This document shows positions 2,520-30,811 of a stretch of DNA of 64,000 nucleotides, piece after piece. Origin of the DNA: Escherichia phage vB_EcoM_KAW3E185; the sequence record MK373782.1. One strand, given 5' to 3'. Positions within the stretch are counted from its first letter, which is position 1, and each line of letters begins with the position of its first letter. The notes beneath the pieces were generated by a model that saw only the letters and a program-made list of their open reading frames with translations, ran no database searches and was not told the DNA's origin. A program made the translations under genes and the position numbers.

Positions 2520-3620
2520 TTACGCTGTGAAGATTTTATCCCACATCGCAACAACTGCATCTCGGTTATACTTCTTCCATACTGCTTCAGCACGTTTAAC
2601 TCGAGCTTCGTATGTGTCAGTGAATTCTAATACAGCTTTTGTGTAAAGCGCAACTACTTCTTTCTTAGGAGTAGAGGAATCAATTTCTACACGCACAGTA
2701 TCTGGGTCGTATTCAAATGTCGCATGAGGATAATCCTTAAAAACTAACTGGATTACAGGGACACCTTTAGAGATGGCTTCAATAGAACTATTCTCTACCG
2801 TACCTGTGTCAGGACACGTATTAATAAGTGCTTTAGCTGTTTTAAGGCGTTCCATGATTTCACTGTGTGGAGCATCAATAATAACAGGATATTTAGCCGG
2901 TGGTGCCCATTTGCTTGGACAGTATCCTACACCATTTTCGCCTAGTGCTTTAATCGCTTCAAGAGCAACATCAGTACGACGCATTTTAGTGTCATAACGT
3001 TGTGCACTAATAATCAGATCAGTCGCCGGAAGAACTTCAGGTTTCTCATTCAAACAAATAACCGGATAATCTTCGGTTTCAAACAACGGATTTGCTCGCC
3101 AATAATCATAATCAATTTTGTCAGTCAGACCTGAAGTCATATAACAATATTTGCGTTCAAATTCACGGAAGGCTTTAGTAGGAGCATAACTCTTACCACC
3201 GTTCTTACGAATTTGAATAGTCTGGTCCCAAATTTGAACAATGCCACGAGATACTGGTTCAAATGGTGTTGCCATAAAATTCTTATGAACTTTAGAGAGA
3301 CCTGCGTCTTTAATTGCCTGAACGGTTAGTTTAGTCGGTTCCATAGTAACAACAAAATCGTATTCATGGATGCCGGCTAGTTCAACAATCTTACGAGCCA
3401 TAGTATAACTCATACCTAGACTGAATTTAGTCAGATGACCAACAGGATGATGATTAACCTTCCAATCACCAAATGTGTCATTATCAAAACCGATATAATC
3501 AATATCGGCACCGATGGACACAAGATATTTCAACACATTTAAATGTACTGCTTCAAGACCACCTTGTACACGTTCTGGGTTAAATGGGACTGCACGAGAT
3601 GGGATAAACATAACTTTCAT
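2520..3620 (-). CDS. putative GT-B fold (GT4-like) glycosyltransferase, 366 aa
   Basis: N-terminal MKVMFIPSRAVPF...GGLEAVHLNVLKYL and C-terminal ...TGTVENSSIEAISKGVPVI resemble GT4 donor-binding motifs; occupies the slot where T4 has gene 60/mobA. Confidence 0.5.
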   Translation of the reverse strand: MKVMFIPSRAVPFNPERVQGGLEAVHLNVLKYLVSIGADIDYIGFDNDTFGDWKVNHHPVGHLTKFSLGMSYTMARKIVELAGIHEYDFVVTMEPTKLTVQAIKDAGLSKVHKNFMATPFEPVSRGIVQIWDQTIQIRKNGGKSYAPTKAFREFERKYCYMTSGLTDKIDYDYWRANPLFETEDYPVICLNEKPEVLPATDLIISAQRYDTKMRRTDVALEAIKALGENGVGYCPSKWAPPAKYPVIIDAPHSEIMERLKTAKALINTCPDTGTVENSSIEAISKGVPVIQLVFKDYPHATFEYDPDTVRVEIDSSTPKKEVVALYTKAVLEFTDTYEARVKRAEAVWKKYNRDAVVAMWDKIFTA

Positions 3621-22654: not shown

Positions 22655-23017
22655 TTAAAAGAATTTAAATTTTTTCTTGGTTCGTTCATTAAAAGCTTGT
22701 TGTACTTGCATTGTAACACATTTTTCAACATGTGGTGCAAGTTCTGCTTTTCTGTCCTGGTCAAGAACTGCAAAGTCCATTACGATTTTACCATCAACCC
22801 AGTCTAGTTTTGTAATATAGACTATATGATGGGAACCGTCTTCAAGTGTAATCAGAATCTCTTGAATGACATTTTCCATTGCTGAACGGACAATTTTAAG
22901 AGATTCATTAAACACTCGTTCTTTGCGAATGTCCTCCCCTTCCGAAGAAGGGGATTCATCAACGATTTCTAGATTTAAATCATCGAGATTATTCATCGAA
23001 ATCTTCCATTTCGTCAA
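22655..23017 (-). CDS. 40: gp40-position protein (120 aa)
   Basis: Position between 41 and uvsX and size as T4 gp40; no motif evidence. Confidence 0.5.
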   Translation of the reverse strand: MTKWKISMNNLDDLNLEIVDESPSSEGEDIRKERVFNESLKIVRSAMENVIQEILITLEDGSHHIVYITKLDWVDGKIVMDFAVLDQDRKAELAPHVEKCVTMQVQQAFNERTKKKFKFF

Positions 23018-24161
23018 GGTCGTTTTCTATATCTGCTGCAGACGGAGCATCAGAAGTTTTAACCGGAACTTTAGTTGTTGCTTTGCAATTAATAAGGTCG
23101 TTAACAGCGTCATCAACTTCTTTAATAGAAGAGATAGCACCTAGTTTATATTTAGTTTCAATTGCATCTCGGAAAGGTTTGTGTTTAAACAACGGACCCC
23201 AGAATTCTACACAATCAGTAGCTTTAGCACGCCACGATTTCTCTTCACGAATCATTTCACCTGTTTCTTCGTCAAGGAATTCACGAGCATACCAACCAGC
23301 TTTAGGCTTAACAACAAATCCAATTTCAGTTGCCATTTCTAACAAGCCACTGAATGGGTCGATACCACCATCAAAATTAACTGTGATTGGGAAAGTAGAT
23401 TTCTCTTTAACTGTACGAGATTTTTCTGCTTTCAGTGTGAAATCGTACCCAGTCAATTCTGTACCTTCTTTAACCTGACGTTTAGAGATAAAAAATACAG
23501 TGTTAGCAGAATAAAGAATACCTGTACCACCACCCATAATCTCTTTAGGATACAATCCGCCAATTTCCATTGCGGTATGGTTGATTGCAACACACGGAAT
23601 ATCTTTAATAGTCAGATACGGTGTCACAATACGGAAAAGAGATTTAAGTGCTTTAGCACGAGACATATCACCTACAACTTTCTCGTTCAACGCATCTTCG
23701 GTTTCTTTCTTAGATGCAGTATTACCGATTGAATCGATAAAGATAATAACTTTATCACCGCGTTCAATAGCGTCAAGCTGATTAGTCATATCAACTTTAA
23801 GTTGTTCGACAGATTGAATCGGAGTATGAACTACACGGTCTAAATCAACACCCATCGAACGGAAGTAAGATTCTGAAGCACCGAATTCTGAGTCATAAAA
23901 CAAACAAATTGCATCTTTATATTTCTTCATATATGCTGCAACCATGGTCAGCCCAAACAATGTTTTAAAGTGTTTAGAAGGAGCAGCAAAAATAGTTAAG
24001 CCTGATTGCAACCCGGCATTCAGTGCACCACCTAGTGCAATATTCAACATCGGAATACGAGTAGGGACTTCATCACGATTATTAAACAGCTTAGACTTAG
24101 TCAAGTCTGCAGTCATTTTAGAAGTAGAAGCTTTAATCAGACGAGATTTTAAATCAGACAT
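22989..24161 (-). CDS. uvsX: UvsX recombinase (RecA-like), 390 aa
   Basis: N-terminus MSDLKSRLIKASTSK and RecA core motifs match T4 UvsX as I recall it. Confidence 0.9.
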   Translation of the reverse strand: MSDLKSRLIKASTSKMTADLTKSKLFNNRDEVPTRIPMLNIALGGALNAGLQSGLTIFAAPSKHFKTLFGLTMVAAYMKKYKDAICLFYDSEFGASESYFRSMGVDLDRVVHTPIQSVEQLKVDMTNQLDAIERGDKVIIFIDSIGNTASKKETEDALNEKVVGDMSRAKALKSLFRIVTPYLTIKDIPCVAINHTAMEIGGLYPKEIMGGGTGILYSANTVFFISKRQVKEGTELTGYDFTLKAEKSRTVKEKSTFPITVNFDGGIDPFSGLLEMATEIGFVVKPKAGWYAREFLDEETGEMIREEKSWRAKATDCVEFWGPLFKHKPFRDAIETKYKLGAISSIKEVDDAVNDLINCKATTKVPVKTSDAPSAADIENDLDEMEDFDE

Positions 24162-24259
24162 TGTATTTTTCCATAGGCATCATTATATTTTACTCATGTT
24201 TAAAAGATAAGATGATTATATACTAAGGGTTATACAGCATTTAAAACTTTAAATGGCTC

Positions 24260-24808
24260 TTAACGAGCCCATTTGATAATTTCTGTAATCAAATAATTAC
24301 GTTCGCTTGCATTAAATCCTATAACTTTGTTAGCACCATCATGATTAAGTAATTGATACGTTTGGATTTTGTTATGAATTGCAAACTCTTCAAAATGTGA
24401 AATGACTGTATTAAAACCGAATGAAGACAAAGTAATAAGGTCGTCTTCAAAACTTTCAGTCATTTCGTTACGTGTTAAAATAATTGTGAACACATCATGG
24501 TTTTGGCAAAGACGAATATAATCCTGTTCATAAACGTCAAGAACCGAGTCCGCATCTTGTCGAATACGTCCATAAACCCAGTTACTAATATATCCACGGT
24601 CTAACAGATAAATCTTAGTAGGGTCTAAATAATTCAACATCGTTTCGAAACAACCAACTTCATTTCGAGACTTAACATCGAAACGTCCATCAACTGTTCG
24701 TTTAGGGAAATCAATCTTTACATATCTTTCACTAATTTCCATTATGTCATTAATGAAAGTTGTTTTACCAGCATTATCCGGGCCATCTACTAAAATAATT
24801 TTAGCCAT
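24260..24808 (-). CDS. P-loop nucleoside/nucleotide kinase-like protein (182 aa)
   Basis: Walker A GPDNAGKTT and LLDRGY motif typical of dNK/TMPK-family kinases; sits in the T4 beta-gt slot. Confidence 0.5.
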   Translation of the reverse strand: MAKIILVDGPDNAGKTTFINDIMEISERYVKIDFPKRTVDGRFDVKSRNEVGCFETMLNYLDPTKIYLLDRGYISNWVYGRIRQDADSVLDVYEQDYIRLCQNHDVFTIILTRNEMTESFEDDLITLSSFGFNTVISHFEEFAIHNKIQTYQLLNHDGANKVIGFNASERNYLITEIIKWAR

Positions 24809-24809
24809 T

Positions 24810-25709
24810 TTATTCCTCGATTACGACATCTTCATATTTAGGTATATTATACGGTGAAGAAATTAAAGCATTAAAATAGATGAACTCACCAAGACCTGGA
24901 TGAAATACTTCTTCAGGATTTTCGAAATATTGAATCTTCGGACGTCCTTTAAGAATTTGATAGTACTCAGTTTTAGTTGGTTTAAAAATTCGAATTAGCG
25001 CTTCTTCAGGATACTTATTTCTGTCAAAGCTATTATTTGGATCGGTTATATAAAGCGGTTGACCTAATTGAATTGCGCATTCAACAACTTGTTCAAAACG
25101 ATAGCATGGGTCACTAATTCGAAATGGATGAAAAATACCATCTAGATGAATAGGAGCCAAATCACCTACAAGACGCTGCATGATGGAAGGACGTATAACT
25201 TTCTGCGTTACGATAATCTTATTACCATCTGCACCAGCGTTAACCAGCACTTCTTTTTGACGTTCATTCAACACAGTAGTTTGAAGTGAACGATTAACCG
25301 ACAACATATCGGTTTTTAAGAATTCGTCAATATAAAAACGTGGTTTATTAGGGTCTGCAGTGATATTGAAATTGAATTCCACATCAAAAGCGCCGTCATA
25401 TCCAGTGATATCTGTGATTAGAAAATCACAATCATAATAAGCAATTAATGAATCAACCACAAATTCATTTTCAGACCAGAAATATTTACGAGTGTTATAC
25501 GCGTTATCTTTATACCATAATGGAACAAACTTAAATTCTGGAAAAAGACGTTCGCATTCTTTAATATCAGATGCATTACGTGGATATGTAATCACATCAC
25601 CCGGATTAGCACGGTGCAAATGAAGTTGGAAGTTGCCATCCTTAAGGATAGCATACTGTCCAGTTTCATAAGACCTCATACTCAAGATAGGTACGCGGAA
25701 AATAGCCAT
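24810..25709 (-). CDS. hypothetical protein (299 aa), candidate DNA-modification enzyme
   Basis: Occupies the beta-gt position between uvsX and 42; stop overlaps the gene 42 start; no recognisable motif. Confidence 0.5.
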   Translation of the reverse strand: MAIFRVPILSMRSYETGQYAILKDGNFQLHLHRANPGDVITYPRNASDIKECERLFPEFKFVPLWYKDNAYNTRKYFWSENEFVVDSLIAYYDCDFLITDITGYDGAFDVEFNFNITADPNKPRFYIDEFLKTDMLSVNRSLQTTVLNERQKEVLVNAGADGNKIIVTQKVIRPSIMQRLVGDLAPIHLDGIFHPFRISDPCYRFEQVVECAIQLGQPLYITDPNNSFDRNKYPEEALIRIFKPTKTEYYQILKGRPKIQYFENPEEVFHPGLGEFIYFNALISSPYNIPKYEDVVIEE

Positions 25710-26425
25710 TAGTCAAGGAATCCTTTAACATAATCAAAATCACGTTCAAACACATGGGCACTTACCATGGTATGAGTATAATCACCAACTTCTACACCGC
25801 ATTCGTTAGCGATATAATGAAGTAATTTTCCTTGGAGATAAAAATCCAACTGCATAACAACAGCGCAGTTCTGAGAACGCATATGACAGTGGGTATAAAG
25901 CTTACCATCACGGATATAATAAGTCACTGAGTCAGTACATGGATATTCAAGCGTTTCGTCTGAATCAAGCAAAGCCTGATCAGAACTTTCTAGAATTTGG
26001 AACACAACTCTTCGAGAGTTAGGCTTCTCTTTAAGTTCTTTTAGAAGAGCTGGTAATTGGGCCGCAATGCGAGGACCATAGAAAGTGTTGAAGTTCGCCG
26101 GCAAAACATCTGATTTTGGTTTAGAAATAAATTTAGCGACACTAGGATATGCCTTAAACGCTTCTTCTGCGTTGGTACCACCAGAAATCATAAACTTCCA
26201 GAAGTCTTCGGCGTATTCATAAGAGATGCGGTTAATACGCGGGTCGGTCATTTTGAATGATGATGGAGTGTCAACAACTACTGTCATAGACCCAATTTCA
26301 TTACAACGTCCAATACGAGAATCAGTTACGAATTCCGGGTTTTCTAAAATTTCACGATTGACTGCTTTAAATGCGGTTTGAAAATCTGCGGCTTTGATAT
26401 ATTTCATTGTGTTATGTTTTCCCAT
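25709..26425 (-). CDS. 42: ThyA-family deoxypyrimidylate hydroxymethylase (gp42-like, divergent), 238 aa
   Basis: ThyA-fold motifs PNSRR..., YPCTDSVTYYIRDGKL...HMRSQNCAVV, HVFERDF; gene 42 position and size. Confidence 0.7.
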   Translation of the reverse strand: MGKHNTMKYIKAADFQTAFKAVNREILENPEFVTDSRIGRCNEIGSMTVVVDTPSSFKMTDPRINRISYEYAEDFWKFMISGGTNAEEAFKAYPSVAKFISKPKSDVLPANFNTFYGPRIAAQLPALLKELKEKPNSRRVVFQILESSDQALLDSDETLEYPCTDSVTYYIRDGKLYTHCHMRSQNCAVVMQLDFYLQGKLLHYIANECGVEVGDYTHTMVSAHVFERDFDYVKGFLD

Positions 26426-26467
26426 GTTTACCTCAATACAATTTATTATATACTCAATTCGTAAAGC

Positions 26468-26707
26468 TTATTTGAATTTCTTGACAATGTTGATATAACG
26501 TAAAGCTTCAGCACCGATACTTCCAAGAACACTATGAAGAAATGCATCAGCGTAGTATTCCAATTGAACAGGTTCTTTAATCACTTTAGCCGCTTTAGTT
26601 TCAAACAGGCCCATCAGGGCCCTTTTAAGAATTTGTTCGTTAGTGTTCAGTTTCATAGTCAAAATCTCTTCATTAAGTTGGTGGTTAAAAGTTTTTCTAG
26701 AAATCAT
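26468..26707 (-). CDS. small hypothetical protein (79 aa)
   Basis: ORF on gene strand, overlaps next gene by 4 nt. Confidence 0.45.
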   Translation of the reverse strand: MISRKTFNHQLNEEILTMKLNTNEQILKRALMGLFETKAAKVIKEPVQLEYYADAFLHSVLGSIGAEALRYINIVKKFK

Positions 26708-27876
26708 TCCGGGTACCTCAAAGCGTCATCAGAGTTAGTTATATCAATAATAGATATAGAGTTTTCTGCTAACCCGTTTTTAGATAATTGACGTTTATAA
26801 TATCTTTCACAATATGTACACGTCGTCCCGCAGATTTCATTAGCACAATCGAAATCTGGATGTCTGAACCACCTTTTTTCTAAAAAGCCATCTAACAAAG
26901 AGGTTTCAATATTTACTGTATGTGAAAACTCAGTTTCGTTTTCAAGAGTGAAAATAGTCTCTAAAGGCTTCCACAGTTCTAACAAATTACCTTCAAACTT
27001 TTCAGAAGCGTATGCTTCAAGAACTTTCAAAATGTAGTCTGTGCTACCTGTACGTCCTGAAACTTTGAATTGAGTGATACCAATATCATTATAAAGTTTC
27101 AAATCTTGAGGACGAACAAAACGAGTTCTCAACCAGTTAAATGGGTCTGTATCACGAGCTTTAATACAGTGCTGCATAGGATATCCGTTTAAGGATTTAG
27201 CATCATCAGCTGTAACATCAGTACTATGGAAAATATAGCAAGAGTCACGATAGCTACAATGTGTTGTATACCCTTTACCAGCATTAGAACAGAACTCATT
27301 TACAAGAACTTCAAATATTATATTGTTCTTATTGCAAAACTCTGCTGCACGCTTCAGGAAAGAAACTGAACGGTTCTTATGAATTCCGCAACAGACCTTT
27401 TTGATGTTATATTGGTCATGCAAGTATTTGATTTGAGTTACAGCATCGACATGTAGAATTGTTGAAACTTCAATCTCAATATCTTTATTGACTTCACGAA
27501 CAATTTCCATAACAACAGGGTTAGCGATAGTAATACGCCATACGCCTATTGACCAAAGATACTGAACATAATCCTGAATAGCTTTCTTCTTCCACTCAAC
27601 TAGTTCTCTTTTTGAACCAGGATTTATCGTGTTGAGTGTATAGTTAAAGCAAATACCTAATTCGTTACAACGTTTAACGTAGTCTTCTAACATTTTTTTG
27701 TCAACGTCAGGAAGCCTAAAATCAGGTCTGGCTGCTACAAAAGCCATTTCTCTTGTAGAGCCGTATACTTCATTTATCAAGCTATTAGGATAAGTTTTAT
27801 TGAGCTCTACGATTTTATCAAGAAGAGCTAAATCAAAATTCGTTCCGATTTTAAAAGTATTCATTTTTTTTTGCAT
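26704..27876 (-). CDS. Cys-rich enzyme-like protein of unknown function (390 aa)
   Basis: Clustered Cys (CSYRDSC, CANEICGTTCTYC); part of the cassette between genes 42 and 43. Confidence 0.5.
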   Translation of the reverse strand: MQKKMNTFKIGTNFDLALLDKIVELNKTYPNSLINEVYGSTREMAFVAARPDFRLPDVDKKMLEDYVKRCNELGICFNYTLNTINPGSKRELVEWKKKAIQDYVQYLWSIGVWRITIANPVVMEIVREVNKDIEIEVSTILHVDAVTQIKYLHDQYNIKKVCCGIHKNRSVSFLKRAAEFCNKNNIIFEVLVNEFCSNAGKGYTTHCSYRDSCYIFHSTDVTADDAKSLNGYPMQHCIKARDTDPFNWLRTRFVRPQDLKLYNDIGITQFKVSGRTGSTDYILKVLEAYASEKFEGNLLELWKPLETIFTLENETEFSHTVNIETSLLDGFLEKRWFRHPDFDCANEICGTTCTYCERYYKRQLSKNGLAENSISIIDITNSDDALRYPE

Positions 27877-27922
27877 CTCACGTTAATTGATGCGATGGTT
27901 TTTGCAGGTCTTACTTAAATTA

Positions 27923-28324
27923 TTATAGATTCGGTTTATATGATTTAAATGTTTCGAATTCGCCTTTATTCATAAGAGCTTTGAATTCGTCAGGACGCAT
28001 AGCTTTGTCGTCGATAATCCAATCATATACTGGTTTATGTGTTAGCAAATTATGGTACTTCAAGCCAATGTTTGCCAAGTTCTGAATCAGACTTGGGAGA
28101 ATGTCAATTGCTATACGACCAGGACCTACTGACTTCATACCACGAGCAGTGTAAAGCGTTATGGTATGCCCTGCATCATACAGGGCATTAATGGCAGACA
28201 CCATTTCGACGTCTGGTTTGAAGTTCACGTAATCACGATTGTTATTCCATTCCGTGATGCAATCATCGACATCAAAACAAAGATTAAGCATGTTTTCTAC
28301 ACGGTGCATTAGATTCGTTCCCAT
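27923..28324 (-). CDS. small DxD-motif protein, possibly HAD-like phosphatase (133 aa)
   Basis: N-terminal LCFDVDDCIT resembles HAD motif I; assignment tentative because the protein is short for a HAD core. Confidence 0.35.
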   Translation of the reverse strand: MGTNLMHRVENMLNLCFDVDDCITEWNNNRDYVNFKPDVEMVSAINALYDAGHTITLYTARGMKSVGPGRIAIDILPSLIQNLANIGLKYHNLLTHKPVYDWIIDDKAMRPDEFKALMNKGEFETFKSYKPNL

Positions 28325-29994
28325 TGATGAGTGATATCGCCACCGATTGGACGATAAGAAACACCAGTTTCTTTATCAGTTAGTACCCATTTACCAGGAT
28401 TTTTTGTAATCAGAGTAGCCGTTACAGGTTCTGCTACGTCATAACTAATAGAGCCGTCCTGAAGTACACGGCCCATGTTACGTAATTGCTTAGTCAGAAG
28501 TTCCATACCTTTATAATATGCGGCTACCGCTTTAAGTGGATTATTCTTGAAATAACCACCTAATGCAATCCAGATAATTGCCACTGCCAAATGATGATAC
28601 TCGTTAAACGAACTCATCTTTCCATATTTGTAAACTAATGGATTGATGTTAATAGTCACATTACAAGTTGTTTCATCAATAGTAAACTGTCCCCAGGTCG
28701 GATTAGCATTGAATTCATCATAACCTGAAACAGCGTAAAGCACTTTAGCTTCATCATACAATTTTGGCCCGTAAATCTTGGTTTCGCCAAAATATCCACG
28801 AGGGTCGATAAACTTGACTTCGCCGTTATCAGTAATCATAGTATTACTGAAGTTCGGGTCGCCATGAATAACAGAGTACTGTCCCTGAGAACGGTTATGA
28901 TAACGAATAAGGTGTTCTAAAGCTTGTTTCAGCATTGGCTTCAGACGTCCAATCTTAGTGTAGTTCACATGTGTGATTTTACCAAATGAATCAATCAATG
29001 GTTGAATGCTTTCACAACGATCAATAACTTTCGTATAGAATTCTTTAGTGAAATCACGACGAACAGTTTCAGGACTTACAAAATAAGTGTCTGTGCTGAA
29101 TTTCAGTGCATCTAAAATTGCATCAACAATTTGTGGACGAGCAAGACTTGATTTGGATTTAATATATTCAAATGCCGGCTTACCTTTAATGCGTTCCATT
29201 TCAAAGTTATTTTCATTAACAGAAACTAACTGAGGAACTGAATCCGATTTCACTTTAAGATACCATGAAATCTCATCTTTCTGAAGAGCTCGACCCTGTT
29301 CGGTTAATGCGAATTTAGTTACAGTTTCTTCACCAATTTCAACTGCATTAAAACTACGATTAAGTTCACGAACTTCATGAGCCTTTTCAAGTTTAGGCAT
29401 ATCACCTAAATCAATTAGATTCATAAGCTCTGATTTATTGAATGCGCTGCCGTAAAGGAATTCTACGAAATCACGTCCTTTGCAGTATTCATGAATTTCC
29501 TCATCAGTAGAACCCATGTAGAATTCCCAGTCTTTGAACTGGTAAATTCCCACAACATTACCGCCTGTTTCACCTACATTAGTGATATTTTCACCATCGA
29601 AATTATACCGACATTCATCACCCTTAACATAGATTGCGTTAACATTCCAAGACCATGAACCAAAATCGGGAATAATATCACACCAGTTAACAATTACGTT
29701 ATGGCCGTCTAAATCTTTGTGTAATTTAGCAAGAGCATAAGCAGAACCGTATGCTTCATCAACTGTACGAATAGTCACATTGAACCCTTCTTGCTCACAA
29801 TAAGCTCGAACAGTTTCAGCAAATTTTGAATGAACTACTACGATAATTTCATCTGCGCCAAGGTCAGAATAAATTGTATACAAATTGCTCAGAATAGTGT
29901 CTTGTTTATAGTTAACAAGCACCTTAGGAATATGATGCGTTATTGGATATAAACGAGTTGCCAGTCCAGCACCAAGAATAACAGCTTTTTTCAT
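28309..29994 (-). CDS. bifunctional sugar-1-phosphate nucleotidylyltransferase / APH-fold sugar kinase (561 aa)
   Basis: N-terminal KKAVILGAGLATRLYPIT...PKVL nucleotidyltransferase signature; C-terminal HGDPNFSN...FIDPRG kinase motifs. Confidence 0.6.
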   Translation of the reverse strand: MKKAVILGAGLATRLYPITHHIPKVLVNYKQDTILSNLYTIYSDLGADEIIVVVHSKFAETVRAYCEQEGFNVTIRTVDEAYGSAYALAKLHKDLDGHNVIVNWCDIIPDFGSWSWNVNAIYVKGDECRYNFDGENITNVGETGGNVVGIYQFKDWEFYMGSTDEEIHEYCKGRDFVEFLYGSAFNKSELMNLIDLGDMPKLEKAHEVRELNRSFNAVEIGEETVTKFALTEQGRALQKDEISWYLKVKSDSVPQLVSVNENNFEMERIKGKPAFEYIKSKSSLARPQIVDAILDALKFSTDTYFVSPETVRRDFTKEFYTKVIDRCESIQPLIDSFGKITHVNYTKIGRLKPMLKQALEHLIRYHNRSQGQYSVIHGDPNFSNTMITDNGEVKFIDPRGYFGETKIYGPKLYDEAKVLYAVSGYDEFNANPTWGQFTIDETTCNVTININPLVYKYGKMSSFNEYHHLAVAIIWIALGGYFKNNPLKAVAAYYKGMELLTKQLRNMGRVLQDGSISYDVAEPVTATLITKNPGKWVLTDKETGVSYRPIGGDITHQWERI

Positions 29995-30035
29995 GTTGAA
30001 GTCCTCATTGGTAAGTAGGAGTATTGTACACTATT

Positions 30036-30179
30036 CTAGTTAAAGCATTCATACTTTGCTTGTAGTCCAATCATAATCCATCCAATTACAAGTGTTGGAA
30101 TCATTACCGGAGCCGTTAAGCTCCAGTAGATAGTCATGACAAGCATCAATAGTAAAAGTCCTATTGTTATTGCTTTCAT
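30036..30179 (-). CDS. small hydrophobic protein (47 aa)
   Basis: Not in ORF track; hand translation MKAITIGLLLLMLVMTIYWSLTAPVMIPTLVIGWIMIGLQAKYECFN; ATG overlaps the SIS gene stop as ATGA. Confidence 0.35.
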   Translation of the reverse strand: MKAITIGLLLLMLVMTIYWSLTAPVMIPTLVIGWIMIGLQAKYECFN

Positions 30180-30811
30180 TGTTCGCCTCGTAACATGGCA
30201 CCTAGTGCACCGCCTGGATGGAACTTAAGGAAGTCATTAGAGGTAAATCCACGTTCAGACGAAAGGTTGATAGCAAACGTATCGATAAGCGCTAACAACA
30301 ATGTAGTGGACATAGTCGGAGCCAGAGAATTCTCATCAACCTCTACCGCGATGCCGGTGCAGAACGTATAATCAAAAAGAGCTTCGTATTCTTGTGGAAT
30401 GTCAGGGTTACAATGTAACAGAATCTGTTTAACCTGAGGACGAATCATACGAAGATGTTTAGCAACACCTATCATTTCTTCAGTCTTACCAGAACGACTG
30501 ATGTGGACTAATACATCATTAGGTGCAATAAATCCTGCGTCACCATGAGAATAATGCCCGGTATTCAAATACATGCTAGGAATACCTAGTGAAGCAAAAG
30601 TCTCGGAAGCTTTAGTTGCGATATTAGCATTCTTACCAACACCTGTAATAATTACCCGGCTTTCATAATTACTAAGTCCAGGGCGTCGAAGAGTTTCTAG
30701 AATAGCATTATAACGAGCAGGGTTTTGACTAATTACTTTAGCCATAGTGGCAAGAGATGAAGCTTGTTTTACGATTGCGTCAATAGCGATAGTGATTGGT
30801 GTAGTTTTCAT
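30176..30811 (-). CDS. SIS-domain sugar-phosphate isomerase, KdsD-like (arabinose-5-phosphate isomerase-like), 211 aa
   Basis: ITGVGKNANIATK...HGDAGF...HISRSGKTEE...FHPGGALG parallel KdsD/GutQ SIS motifs; no CBS domains. Confidence 0.65.
   Translation of the reverse strand: MKTTPITIAIDAIVKQASSLATMAKVISQNPARYNAILETLRRPGLSNYESRVIITGVGKNANIATKASETFASLGIPSMYLNTGHYSHGDAGFIAPNDVLVHISRSGKTEEMIGVAKHLRMIRPQVKQILLHCNPDIPQEYEALFDYTFCTGIAVEVDENSLAPTMSTTLLLALIDTFAINLSSERGFTSNDFLKFHPGGALGAMLRGEQ

What the first reader, a model, noticed from the sequence alone, without database searches (positions are those of the whole stretch)
24260..25709. The T4 beta-glucosyltransferase slot holds a P-loop kinase and a 299-aa protein of unknown fold
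Between uvsX and gene 42 T4 encodes beta-gt. Here the slot holds a 182-aa dNK/TMPK-like P-loop kinase (GPDNAGKTT, LLDRGY) and a 299-aa ORF with no recognisable motif, both translationally coupled to gene 42. Their position next to the hydroxymethylase suggests a role in making or decorating the modified nucleotide: the 299-aa protein could be a novel-fold transferase or a second-sugar transferase, and the kinase could act on a modified nucleotide or a sugar.
Basis: inference. Interest (0 to 1): 0.7.

Follow-up and report, generated by a model that had tools for sequence, protein, structure and literature searches.

The report
Sugar transferase and kinase for hydroxycytosine DNA
The two genes are the already published RB69 gp46:47 (an ordinary-fold sugar transferase predicted to put the first arabinose on the phage's 5-hydroxycytosine) and gp45 (a thymidylate-kinase-like nucleotide kinase), not a novel fold and not part of a hydroxymethylcytosine pathway; what each acts on is not established in any paper I could read.

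Summary
ORFs of 182 aa (24260-24808, -) and 299 aa (24810-25709, -) lie between uvsX and the gene-42 homologue, carry the quoted motifs and are tightly coupled. The interpretation needs three corrections.

1. The window is an RB69-like Mosigvirus. Its "gene 42" is the flavin/O2-dependent 5-hydroxy-dCMP synthase, near-identical to PDB 9iqc and carrying the D169N signature. It is not a hydroxymethylase.
2. The 299-aa protein is not a new fold. It models confidently as a compact GT-B glycosyltransferase. It equals RB69 gp46:47 (an ORF the RB69 record splits in two), published as predicted "arabinosyltransferase 1".
3. The kinase is RB69 gp45, a thymidylate-kinase fold without the canonical LID, published as "nucleotide kinase".

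So the finding is already known as a prediction. What I add:
- The trio of synthase, GT and kinase is conserved in distant phages.
- This GT family occurs in 348 phage records, against 211 for the second, ORF003c-type GT.
- GT and kinase occur as natural fusion proteins in both domain orders.

Together with the published fact that the T4-gp1-type kinase already phosphorylates 5hodCMP, this leaves one real open question. Is the first sugar added to the mononucleotide, with this kinase acting next, or to DNA?

The parts
24260..24808 (-). 182-aa P-loop kinase with a thymidylate-kinase fold and no canonical LID (= RB69 gp45). Predicted kinase of the modified dCMP; substrate unproven.
24810..25709 (-). 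299-aa compact GT-B glycosyltransferase (= RB69 gp46:47, DLP3 gp79, Thanatos TH1_063). Predicted base-proximal alpha-arabinofuranosyltransferase acting on 5-hydroxycytosine.
25709..26425 (-). 238-aa thymidylate-synthase homologue: flavin/O2-dependent 5-hydroxy-dCMP synthase (= RB69 gp48). It is not a dCMP hydroxymethylase.
   Evidence: PDB 9iqc/9ir2 at E 4e-160 over the full length. The ThyA D169 position is Asn and the N177 position is Asp (HMRSQNCAVVMQLD), the published 5hodCMP-synthase signature (PMC13326640, sections 24 and 28).
25705..25712 (-). TAATG stop/start overlap between the synthase and the GT.
   Evidence: Sequence.
24805..24825 (-). GT stop TAA, one base, then the kinase ATG, preceded by GAGGA.
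   Evidence: Sequence.
26468..26707 (-). 79-aa conserved ORF of unknown function in the same operon.
   Evidence: PHROG 8601 at 1e-50, no function assigned.
26704..27876 (-). 390-aa peptidase-U32-family protein (= RB69 gp50); role in the pathway unassigned.
   Evidence: Pfam PF01136 at 7.5e-11. Weak UbiU match at 9e-4. Aligns with E. coli UbiU/UbiV/TrhP/RlhA with C213 and C237 invariant. Homologues of 47-50% identity sit next to the GT-kinase fusions.
27923..28324 (-). 133-aa HAD-type phosphatase (= RB69 gp51; analogous to AfhF).
   Evidence: TIGR01689 capsule biosynthesis phosphatase at 4e-13. Role taken from PMC13326640, section 27.
28309..29994 (-). 561-aa bifunctional sugar-1-P nucleotidyltransferase / sugar kinase (= RB69 ORF53_52c; analogous to AfhE), which makes UDP-arabinose.
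   Evidence: Pfam NTP_transferase at 8.5e-10, plus weak APH/EcKL kinase hits. PMC6024577; PMC13326640, section 27.
30176..30811 (-). 211-aa SIS-domain arabinose-5-phosphate isomerase (= RB69 gp55).
   Evidence: ORF. The syntenic gene is annotated arabinose 5-phosphate isomerase in NRG-P0074. PMC13326640, Table 1.
2520..3620 (-). 366-aa ORF003c-type GT-B transferase; second (beta) arabinosyltransferase with a solved structure.
   Evidence: PDB 9iqz/9ir0 'phage HY126 glycosyltransferase' at E 3e-248. Found in 211 phage records, with two copies in Acinetobacter phages.

Best explanation
The two ORFs are the downstream two-thirds of a conserved three-gene core (5-hydroxy-dCMP synthase, GT-B transferase, TMPK-like kinase) of the phage pathway that replaces cytosine by glycosylated 5-hydroxycytosine.

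Shown elsewhere: the synthase hydroxylates dCMP at C5.

Inferred: the 299-aa protein is a minimal GT-B enzyme. Its closest structural matches (MshA, BshA, PimA, sucrose-phosphate synthase) are, from my own knowledge, retaining GT4 enzymes. It takes UDP-arabinofuranose, made by the upstream isomerase, kinase/uridylyltransferase and phosphatase genes, and attaches the first, alpha-linked arabinose to the 5-OH of 5-hydroxycytosine.

Inferred: the 182-aa protein is an ATP-dependent NMP kinase of thymidylate-kinase fold. It phosphorylates the modified deoxycytidylate (5hodCMP or its arabinosylated form) to the diphosphate.

The two proteins work as a functional pair. Whether the first sugar goes onto the mononucleotide or onto replicated DNA is not settled. 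I hold the DNA-level route slightly more likely (about 0.45 against 0.3). The second arabinose is added by the separate ORF003c-type GT at 2520-3620.
For: Identity with published genes: 99.3% to RB69 ORF046c/047c. PMC13326640 Table 1 lists RB69p046:47 as arabinosyltransferase 1 and RB69p045 as nucleotide kinase.

Fold: GT-B for the 299-aa protein and TMPK for the kinase.

The neighbour is the 5hodCMP synthase.

Conserved trio: it recurs in 6 of 6 distant metagenomic contexts, in Thanatos and in the hexosylating Rhizobium phage RL38J1. The five ThyA homologues I aligned carry the D169N signature. Start/stop overlaps are common at the junctions.

Universality: this GT family is in 348 phage records, including Klebsiella, Serratia, Yersinia, Dhakavirus, Thanatos and Rhizobium phages. 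The ORF003c-type GT is in only 211. Its copy number tracks the number of extra sugars: 0 in mono-arabinosylated Thanatos, 1 in di-arabinosylated RB69, 2 in tri-arabinosylated DLP3 (sugar counts from PMC13326640, section 26).

Fusions: GT and kinase occur as single polypeptides in both orders. The fused kinase domains are homologous to the stand-alone family (hhalign 96.2%, E 2.4e-9).

The proximal arabinose is alpha-linked (PMC13326640).
Against: No enzyme assay of either protein exists in any paper I could read.

Purified DLP3 gp79, a family member, gave no arabosylation of 5hoC-containing DNA with UDP-Araf or UDP-Arap (PMC13326640, section 26, data not shown).

The Thanatos homologue TH1_063 was reported to make UDP-xylose from UTP and xylose-1-P, not to transfer sugar (PMC12838424).

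The T4-gp1-type kinase RB69 gp159 already converts 5hodCMP to 5hodCDP in vitro (PMC13326640, section 24), so a second 5hodCMP kinase looks redundant.

Neither family reaches any Pfam or NCBIfam threshold.

He et al. 2026 (Nat Chem Biol) and Mahler et al. 2025 (Cell Host Microbe) could not be read and may already settle or contradict these assignments.
Confidence: 0.7

Rival explanations
1. Pre-replicative glycosylation. The GT arabinosylates the free nucleotide 5hodCMP. The TMPK-like kinase is the dedicated kinase for the bulky ara-5hodCMP, which the gp1-type kinase cannot take. Host NDK and the phage polymerase then incorporate the already glycosylated nucleotide.
For: Gene order follows the pathway order (synthase, GT, kinase), with overlapping or near-abutting junctions. 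GT-kinase fusions exist in both domain orders, which is most natural for consecutive steps on one small molecule. The gp1-type kinase already handles 5hodCMP, so a second kinase needs another substrate (PMC13326640, section 24). DLP3 gp79 was inactive on 5hoC-DNA, and the authors state that they cannot distinguish mononucleotide from DNA as the acceptor (PMC13326640, section 26 and Fig. 5 legend).
Against: All phage DNA glycosylations characterised so far (T4 alpha/beta-GT; DLP3 gp76+77) act on DNA. 5hodC is incorporated into E. coli DNA when the synthase and the gp1-type kinase are expressed, so 5hodCTP is a usable polymerase substrate (PMC13326640). The fusions can also be explained by an obligate GT-kinase complex. 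No glycosylated nucleotide pool has been reported.
Confidence: 0.3
2. The 299-aa protein is not a transferase to the base. It is a UDP-pentose-forming or UDP-sugar-converting enzyme (pyrophosphorylase-like or epimerase-like), and another protein transfers the first sugar.
For: TH1_063 (47.5% identical) produced UDP-xylose from UTP and xylose-1-P in vitro (PMC12838424). Foldseek ranks UDP-GlcNAc 2-epimerases, which share the GT-B fold, among the top hits.
Against: The family stays next to the synthase and kinase in loci with no sugar-activation genes within the 6-8 kb fetched on each side (L003, L011, L012). It also occurs in a galactose/glucose-using phage (RL38J1 gp215), so it follows the base and not the sugar. 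A dedicated uridylyltransferase is already present. Thanatos has no other GT-like candidate (PMC13326640, section 26). The count of GT genes equals the count of sugars only if this protein is a transferase.
Confidence: 0.1
3. The 182-aa protein is simply a phage dTMP kinase for general dTTP supply, unrelated to the modification.
For: The best structural matches are TMPKs. RefSeq and some GenBank records annotate it as thymidylate kinase. The D-R...S...Y motif is shared with E. coli Tmk.
Against: It keeps its place next to the GT across very distant phages and is fused to the GT in several lineages. T4-like phages already cover dTMP with gp1 (established T4 biochemistry; own knowledge). It lacks the TMPK LID and fails the Pfam and TIGRFAM TMPK thresholds.
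Confidence: 0.1
4. One reading: a novel-fold transferase and a kinase serving a hydroxymethyl-dCMP pathway.
For: Position in the beta-gt slot. No sequence motif.
Against: The fold is GT-B. The neighbour makes 5-hydroxy-dCMP, not hm-dCMP (PMC13326640; PMC13390438).
Confidence: 0.02

Closest known systems
RB69 gp46:47 / DLP3 gp79 / Thanatos TH1_063 / RL38J1 gp215 (predicted first glycosyltransferase of 5-hydroxycytosine DNA; Lee et al. NAR 2026, PMC13326640)
   Different: Nothing differs except that the ORF is intact here, whereas the RB69 record splits it by a sequencing error. The function is still a prediction. The only published assays on family members were negative for transfer or showed a different activity.
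GT-B glycosyltransferases whose best structural matches here I know as retaining GT4 enzymes (MshA 3c4q, BshA 6n1x, PimA 2gej, sucrose-phosphate synthase 6kih, WaaG)
   Different: Only 299 aa, against 340-400. 7-12% identity. No Pfam Glycos_transf_1 hit in any of 37 members. The second Glu of EX7E is absent. The acceptor is a pyrimidine 5-OH.
T4 beta-glucosyltransferase and alpha-glucosyltransferase
   Different: No sequence relationship to b-gt (hhalign probability 0.1%). Acceptor 5-hydroxycytosine, not hmC. Donor UDP-arabinofuranose, not UDP-glucose. Action on DNA is not demonstrated.
Thymidylate kinase (TMPK; e.g. vaccinia 2v54, T. thermophilus 5x7j, E. coli Tmk)
   Different: The LID insertion is missing. 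Below the Pfam and TIGRFAM thresholds. hhalign to E. coli Tmk aligns only the P-loop. Genomic linkage and fusion to a glycosyltransferase.
T4 gp1 deoxynucleoside monophosphate kinase (RB69 gp159)
   Same: NMP kinase of a modified-cytosine phage. RB69 gp159 is shown to phosphorylate 5hodCMP (PMC13326640).

Membership tests
GT-B fold glycosyltransferase superfamily | Two Rossmann-like alpha/beta domains with an interdomain cleft | tested here: met
GT-B fold glycosyltransferase superfamily | Sequence membership in a curated GT family (Pfam Glycos_transf_1 / GT4-like models) | tested here: not met
   No Pfam hit for the protein or for any of 37 family members. No NCBIfam hit. No PDB sequence hit, even with a profile. 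hhalign probability 0.3% to the ORF003c-type GT.
GT-B fold glycosyltransferase superfamily | Donor-binding EX7E-type motif and a basic residue for the diphosphate | tested here: inconclusive
   R197 (FPFRISD), K246 and H270-P-G are invariant, and E/D275 is conserved, but there is no second acidic residue at +8. Assignment is by eye, not by superposition.
GT-B fold glycosyltransferase superfamily | Catalytic transfer of a sugar from an NDP-sugar to an acceptor | not testable with these tools
   Published assays on homologues: no transfer seen (PMC13326640, section 26; PMC12838424).
5-hydroxycytosine base-proximal glycosyltransferase family (RB69 gp46:47 type) | Clear homology to RB69 gp46:47 / DLP3 gp79 | tested here: met
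   99.3% and 45.9% identity over the full length.
5-hydroxycytosine base-proximal glycosyltransferase family (RB69 gp46:47 type) | Genomic linkage to a D169N thymidylate-synthase homologue (5hodCMP synthase) | tested here: met
   Met in the window. A ThyA homologue lies beside the GT in L002, L003, L009-L012, Thanatos and RL38J1. D169N was checked in the window, L002, L003 and Thanatos. Not met in the three fusion loci L016-L018, where no ThyA homologue lies within the fetched DNA.
5-hydroxycytosine base-proximal glycosyltransferase family (RB69 gp46:47 type) | Present in every glycosyl-5hoC phage, including those with a single sugar | tested here: met
   348 records for this family against 211 for the ORF003c-type GT. 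Thanatos has only this one.
Thymidylate kinase (TMPK) family | TMPK fold | tested here: met
Thymidylate kinase (TMPK) family | P-loop plus DR(Y/H) motif | tested here: met
   G14 and K15 invariant, D11 nearly invariant. D70, R71, S75 and Y79 align with E. coli Tmk DRHDLSTQAY. The third residue of the motif is Gly or Phe, not Tyr or His.
Thymidylate kinase (TMPK) family | LID region with basic residues closing over ATP | tested here: not met
   The roughly 25-residue E. coli LID segment is a gap in all nine phage sequences. The corresponding region has low pLDDT.
Thymidylate kinase (TMPK) family | Score above the curated model cut-offs (PF02223, TIGR00041) | tested here: not met
   No PF02223 hit. 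TIGR00041 scores 15.8 bits against a cut-off of 83. Only 'faint' PF02223 marks on distant homologues.
Thymidylate kinase (TMPK) family | dTMP as substrate | not testable with these tools
   No assay found in the papers I could read.
T4 gp1 dNMP kinase family | Structural or sequence similarity to gp1 (1dek) | tested here: not met
   Asn in the window against Asp in T4 gp42 and ThyA. Near-identical to PDB 9iqc, the HY126 flavin-dependent hydroxylase described in PMC13326640, section 24.

The most novel reading that the evidence does not exclude
The first arabinose is attached before replication, on the free nucleotide. The GT glycosylates 5hodCMP and its partner, the LID-less TMPK-like kinase, is a dedicated kinase for the sugar-bearing nucleotide. 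The two are coupled in translation here and fused into one polypeptide in other phages. The phage polymerase would then build DNA directly from a glycosylated dNTP. To my knowledge this would be the first nucleotide-level glycosylation route for phage DNA.
Probability: 0.3. Interest if true: 0.8.

Novelty: already known. Interest (0 to 1): 0.3.

Why it matters
As submitted, the finding rediscovers two genes that Lee et al. (NAR 2026) already list as RB69 gp45 (nucleotide kinase) and gp46:47 (arabinosyltransferase 1). Its premises, an hmC pathway and an unknown fold, are out of date.

Two things remain of value. First, in the literature I could read neither protein has a demonstrated activity. 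The acceptor of the first sugar (nucleotide or DNA) and the substrate of the second kinase are explicitly open. Second, the GT-kinase fusions and the conserved trio found here make that question sharply testable with a few enzyme assays.

The answer decides whether hypermodified glycosyl-DNA can be made from glycosylated dNTPs. That matters for understanding how phages evade restriction and CRISPR, and for enzymatic synthesis of glycosylated DNA.

Tried and rejected
- Sequence-family searches for the 299-aa protein gave nothing usable: Pfam, NCBIfam, PDB phmmer and a PDB profile search. PHROGs gives only a family of unknown function.
- hhalign of the GT family against the ORF003c-type GT and against T4 beta-GT found no relationship.
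- hhalign of the kinase family against E. coli Tmk aligned only the P-loop.
- Isoelectric point as a proxy for DNA binding was rejected. The GT family is acidic (median pI 5.1), but the T4 alpha-GT, a proven DNA enzyme, has pI 6.1.
- The promoter/terminator scan of 23900-30800 found fewer promoter-like sites than shuffles and chance-level terminators, so it says nothing about operon boundaries.
- Base composition shows no sign of recent acquisition: 0.33-0.35 GC against 0.37 for the window.
- He et al. 2026 (Nat Chem Biol, HY126 Afh genes) and Mahler et al. 2025 (Cell Host Microbe) are not held in the library. Searches for Afh names and 5hodC terms returned only the two papers already read.
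- Pfam scans of the unannotated neighbours of the fusion genes found no hidden thymidylate-synthase homologue and nothing reliable.
- RL38J1 gp214, the kinase next to the RL38J1 GT, is not BLAST-similar to the window kinase. I therefore do not claim orthology there.

Full report
**What is there.** On the minus strand the window reads uvsX (22989-24161), a 182-aa ORF (24260-24808), a 299-aa ORF (24810-25709) and a 238-aa thymidylate-synthase homologue (25709-26425). The synthase stop overlaps the start of the 299-aa ORF (TAATG). That ORF ends one base before the kinase ATG, behind a GAGGA. T4 has uvsX-segA-b-gt-42 at this place, so the 'beta-gt slot' description is correct.

**Which phage.** The region is 99.5% identical to Shigella phage JK36 and matches 274 phage records, mostly RB69-like Mosigvirus.

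**The premise about the neighbour is out of date.**
- The 238-aa protein matches PDB 9iqc/9ir2/9iqu at E 4e-160 over its full length.
- In an alignment with E. coli ThyA and T4 gp42 it has Asn at the D169 position and Asp at the N177 position.
- Lee et al. (NAR 2026, PMC13326640, sections 24 and 28) show experimentally that RB69 gp48 and other D169N homologues make 5-hydroxy-dCMP with a flavin and O2.
- They also show that RB69 DNA carries beta-D-Araf-(1-3)-alpha-D-Araf on 5-hydroxycytosine, not on hydroxymethylcytosine. PMC13390438 says the same for Mosigvirus NP.

**The 299-aa protein.**
- Sequence methods find nothing: Pfam, NCBIfam and PDB with a single sequence or a profile. PHROG 3891 carries no function.
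- With a 37-sequence alignment AlphaFold2 gives a confident model, pLDDT 94 and pTM 0.88.
- Foldseek agrees: MshA 3c4q at E 3e-6, together with UDP-GlcNAc 2-epimerases of the same fold.
- It is the same gene as RB69 ORF046c/047c, 99.3% identical and split in that record. It is 45.9% identical to DLP3 gp79 and 47.5% to Thanatos TH1_063.
- So 'unknown fold' is refuted, and the transferase idea is a published prediction.

**The kinase.**
- An alignment of stand-alone homologues with E. coli Tmk keeps G14, K15, D70, R71, S75, Y79 and R113, and shows that the Tmk LID segment is absent.
- It fails the curated TMPK models.
- It is RB69 gp45, 'nucleotide kinase' in Lee et al., Table 1.

**What I could add: the trio.**
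- A thymidylate-synthase homologue, this GT and this kinase lie together in six of six distant metagenomic contexts examined. These include a 355-kb contig, marine T4-like contigs and contigs of uncertain affinity.
- The same trio is present in Thanatos and in Rhizobium phage RL38J1, gp216-215-214.
- The four distant ThyA homologues I aligned carry the D169N signature.
- The kinases are 28-31% identical to the window's.
- RL38J1 gp215 is 28% identical to the window GT (E 6e-9), although its proximal sugar is galactose. The family therefore follows the base, not the sugar.

**What I could add: universality.** The family is in 348 phage records. The ORF003c-type GT (window 2520-3620, identical to PDB 9iqz) is in only 211: Mosigvirus, one Tegunavirus and Acinetobacter phages with two copies. 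Copy number matches the number of extra sugars reported: none in Thanatos, one in RB69, two in DLP3 (PMC13326640, section 26). This supports the 299-aa family as the base-proximal transferase.

**What I could add: fusions.**
- An exhaustive profile search of 1.84 billion representative proteins finds only 227 family members. Several of them are fusions.
- Some have the GT followed by a P-loop domain (P0255, P0257, P0263, P0273, P0282, P0286, P0242; 19 clusters of 519-604 aa). One has the reverse order (P0270). Others have a HAD phosphatase followed by the GT.
- The fused P-loop domains are homologous to the window's kinase family: hhalign probability 96.2%, E 2.4e-9 over 138 columns.

**Mechanism, and what stays open.** The best-supported reading is as follows.
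1. UDP-Araf is made by the upstream isomerase (30176-30811), the bifunctional kinase/uridylyltransferase (28309-29994) and the HAD phosphatase (27923-28324).
2. The 299-aa GT attaches the first alpha-arabinose to the 5-OH.
3. The kinase phosphorylates the modified dCMP.
4. The 366-aa GT adds the second sugar.

Only the synthase step, and by homology the sugar-activation steps, are experimentally shown. Two published facts keep the details open. RB69 gp159, a gp1-type kinase, already converts 5hodCMP to 5hodCDP (PMC13326640, section 24). Purified DLP3 gp79 did not arabinosylate 5hoC-DNA, and the authors say they cannot tell whether the first sugar goes on the mononucleotide or on DNA (section 26 and Fig. 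5 legend). With the gene order, the coupling and the fusions, a nucleotide-level first glycosylation followed by a dedicated kinase is a serious alternative (about 0.3).

A different rival comes from PMC12838424, which reports that TH1_063 forms UDP-xylose from UTP and xylose-1-P. The linkage of the family to the base rather than to sugar genes argues against a purely sugar-activating role.

**Limits.** I could not read He et al. 2026 or Mahler et al. 2025, which may contain direct assays. All functional statements about the two ORFs are inference from fold, synteny, phyletic pattern and fusions.

**Verdict.** The genes and their predicted roles are already published. The residual interest lies in the unresolved acceptor and substrate question, which the fusions make directly testable.

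Noticed in passing
window 26704-27876 (-); L016:10053-11153, L017:6072-7157, L018:9179-10276; L005:6462-7598: The operon contains a peptidase-U32-family protein (RB69 gp50, called 'sugar or heterocycle reductase' in PMC13326640). From my own knowledge, U32 proteins include the O2-independent hydroxylation factors UbiU/UbiV, TrhP (ho5U in tRNA) and RlhA (5-hydroxycytidine in 23S rRNA). It aligns with these four E. coli proteins with C213 and C237 invariant. Homologues of 47-50% identity sit beside the GT-kinase fusions in three loci where no ThyA-like synthase lies within the fetched DNA. It could be an anaerobic route to 5-hydroxycytosine for gut phages. The contigs were seen only in part, so a ThyA-like gene may lie elsewhere on them.
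   Followed up: partly
L002:1-523, L003:6539-7054, L004:1815-2330, L012:4715-5275: In distant phages lacking the U32 gene, a Flavodoxin_2 (PF02525) gene lies directly upstream of the D169N thymidylate-synthase homologue in three loci (L003, L004, L012). In L002 it lies about 6 kb upstream. This fits a dedicated flavin reductase for the flavin-dependent hydroxylase. The window has no such gene in this operon.
   Followed up: no
proteins P0166, P0176, P0177, P0190, P0193, P0248, P0226: Other members of the GT family are fused at the N-terminus to a domain of about 185 aa carrying DFDG...GDD motifs, which I read as a KdsC-type HAD phosphatase. This links the transferase physically to a sugar-phosphate phosphatase step. 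Domain identity was read by eye only.
   Followed up: no
window 2520-3620 (-): A 366-aa ORF virtually identical to PDB 9iqz/9ir0, 'phage HY126 glycosyltransferase' (E 3e-248). It is the RB69 ORF003c-type GT that Thomas et al. 2018 proposed as the arabinosyltransferase. It has no Pfam or NCBIfam hit despite a solved GT4-like structure.
   Followed up: partly
L017:845-1414: The 189-aa protein directly upstream of a GT-kinase fusion has a very weak chorismate-mutase type II hit (E 0.15 over 37 residues). From my own knowledge, prephenate is the reported hydroxyl donor of U32-type hydroxylases, so this would be suggestive, but the score is at noise level.
   Followed up: no
window 26468-26707 (-): A conserved 79-aa ORF (PHROG 8601 at 1e-50, no function) overlaps the end of the U32 gene (26704-26707) and lies 42 bases upstream of the synthase gene. 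No role has been proposed for it.
   Followed up: no
L001:10163-10924 (NRG-P0074) compared with window 27923-28324 / 28309-29994: In phage NRG-P0074 a homing endonuclease gene is inserted between the HAD phosphatase and the bifunctional gene. The window lacks it, and there the two genes overlap directly.
   Followed up: no
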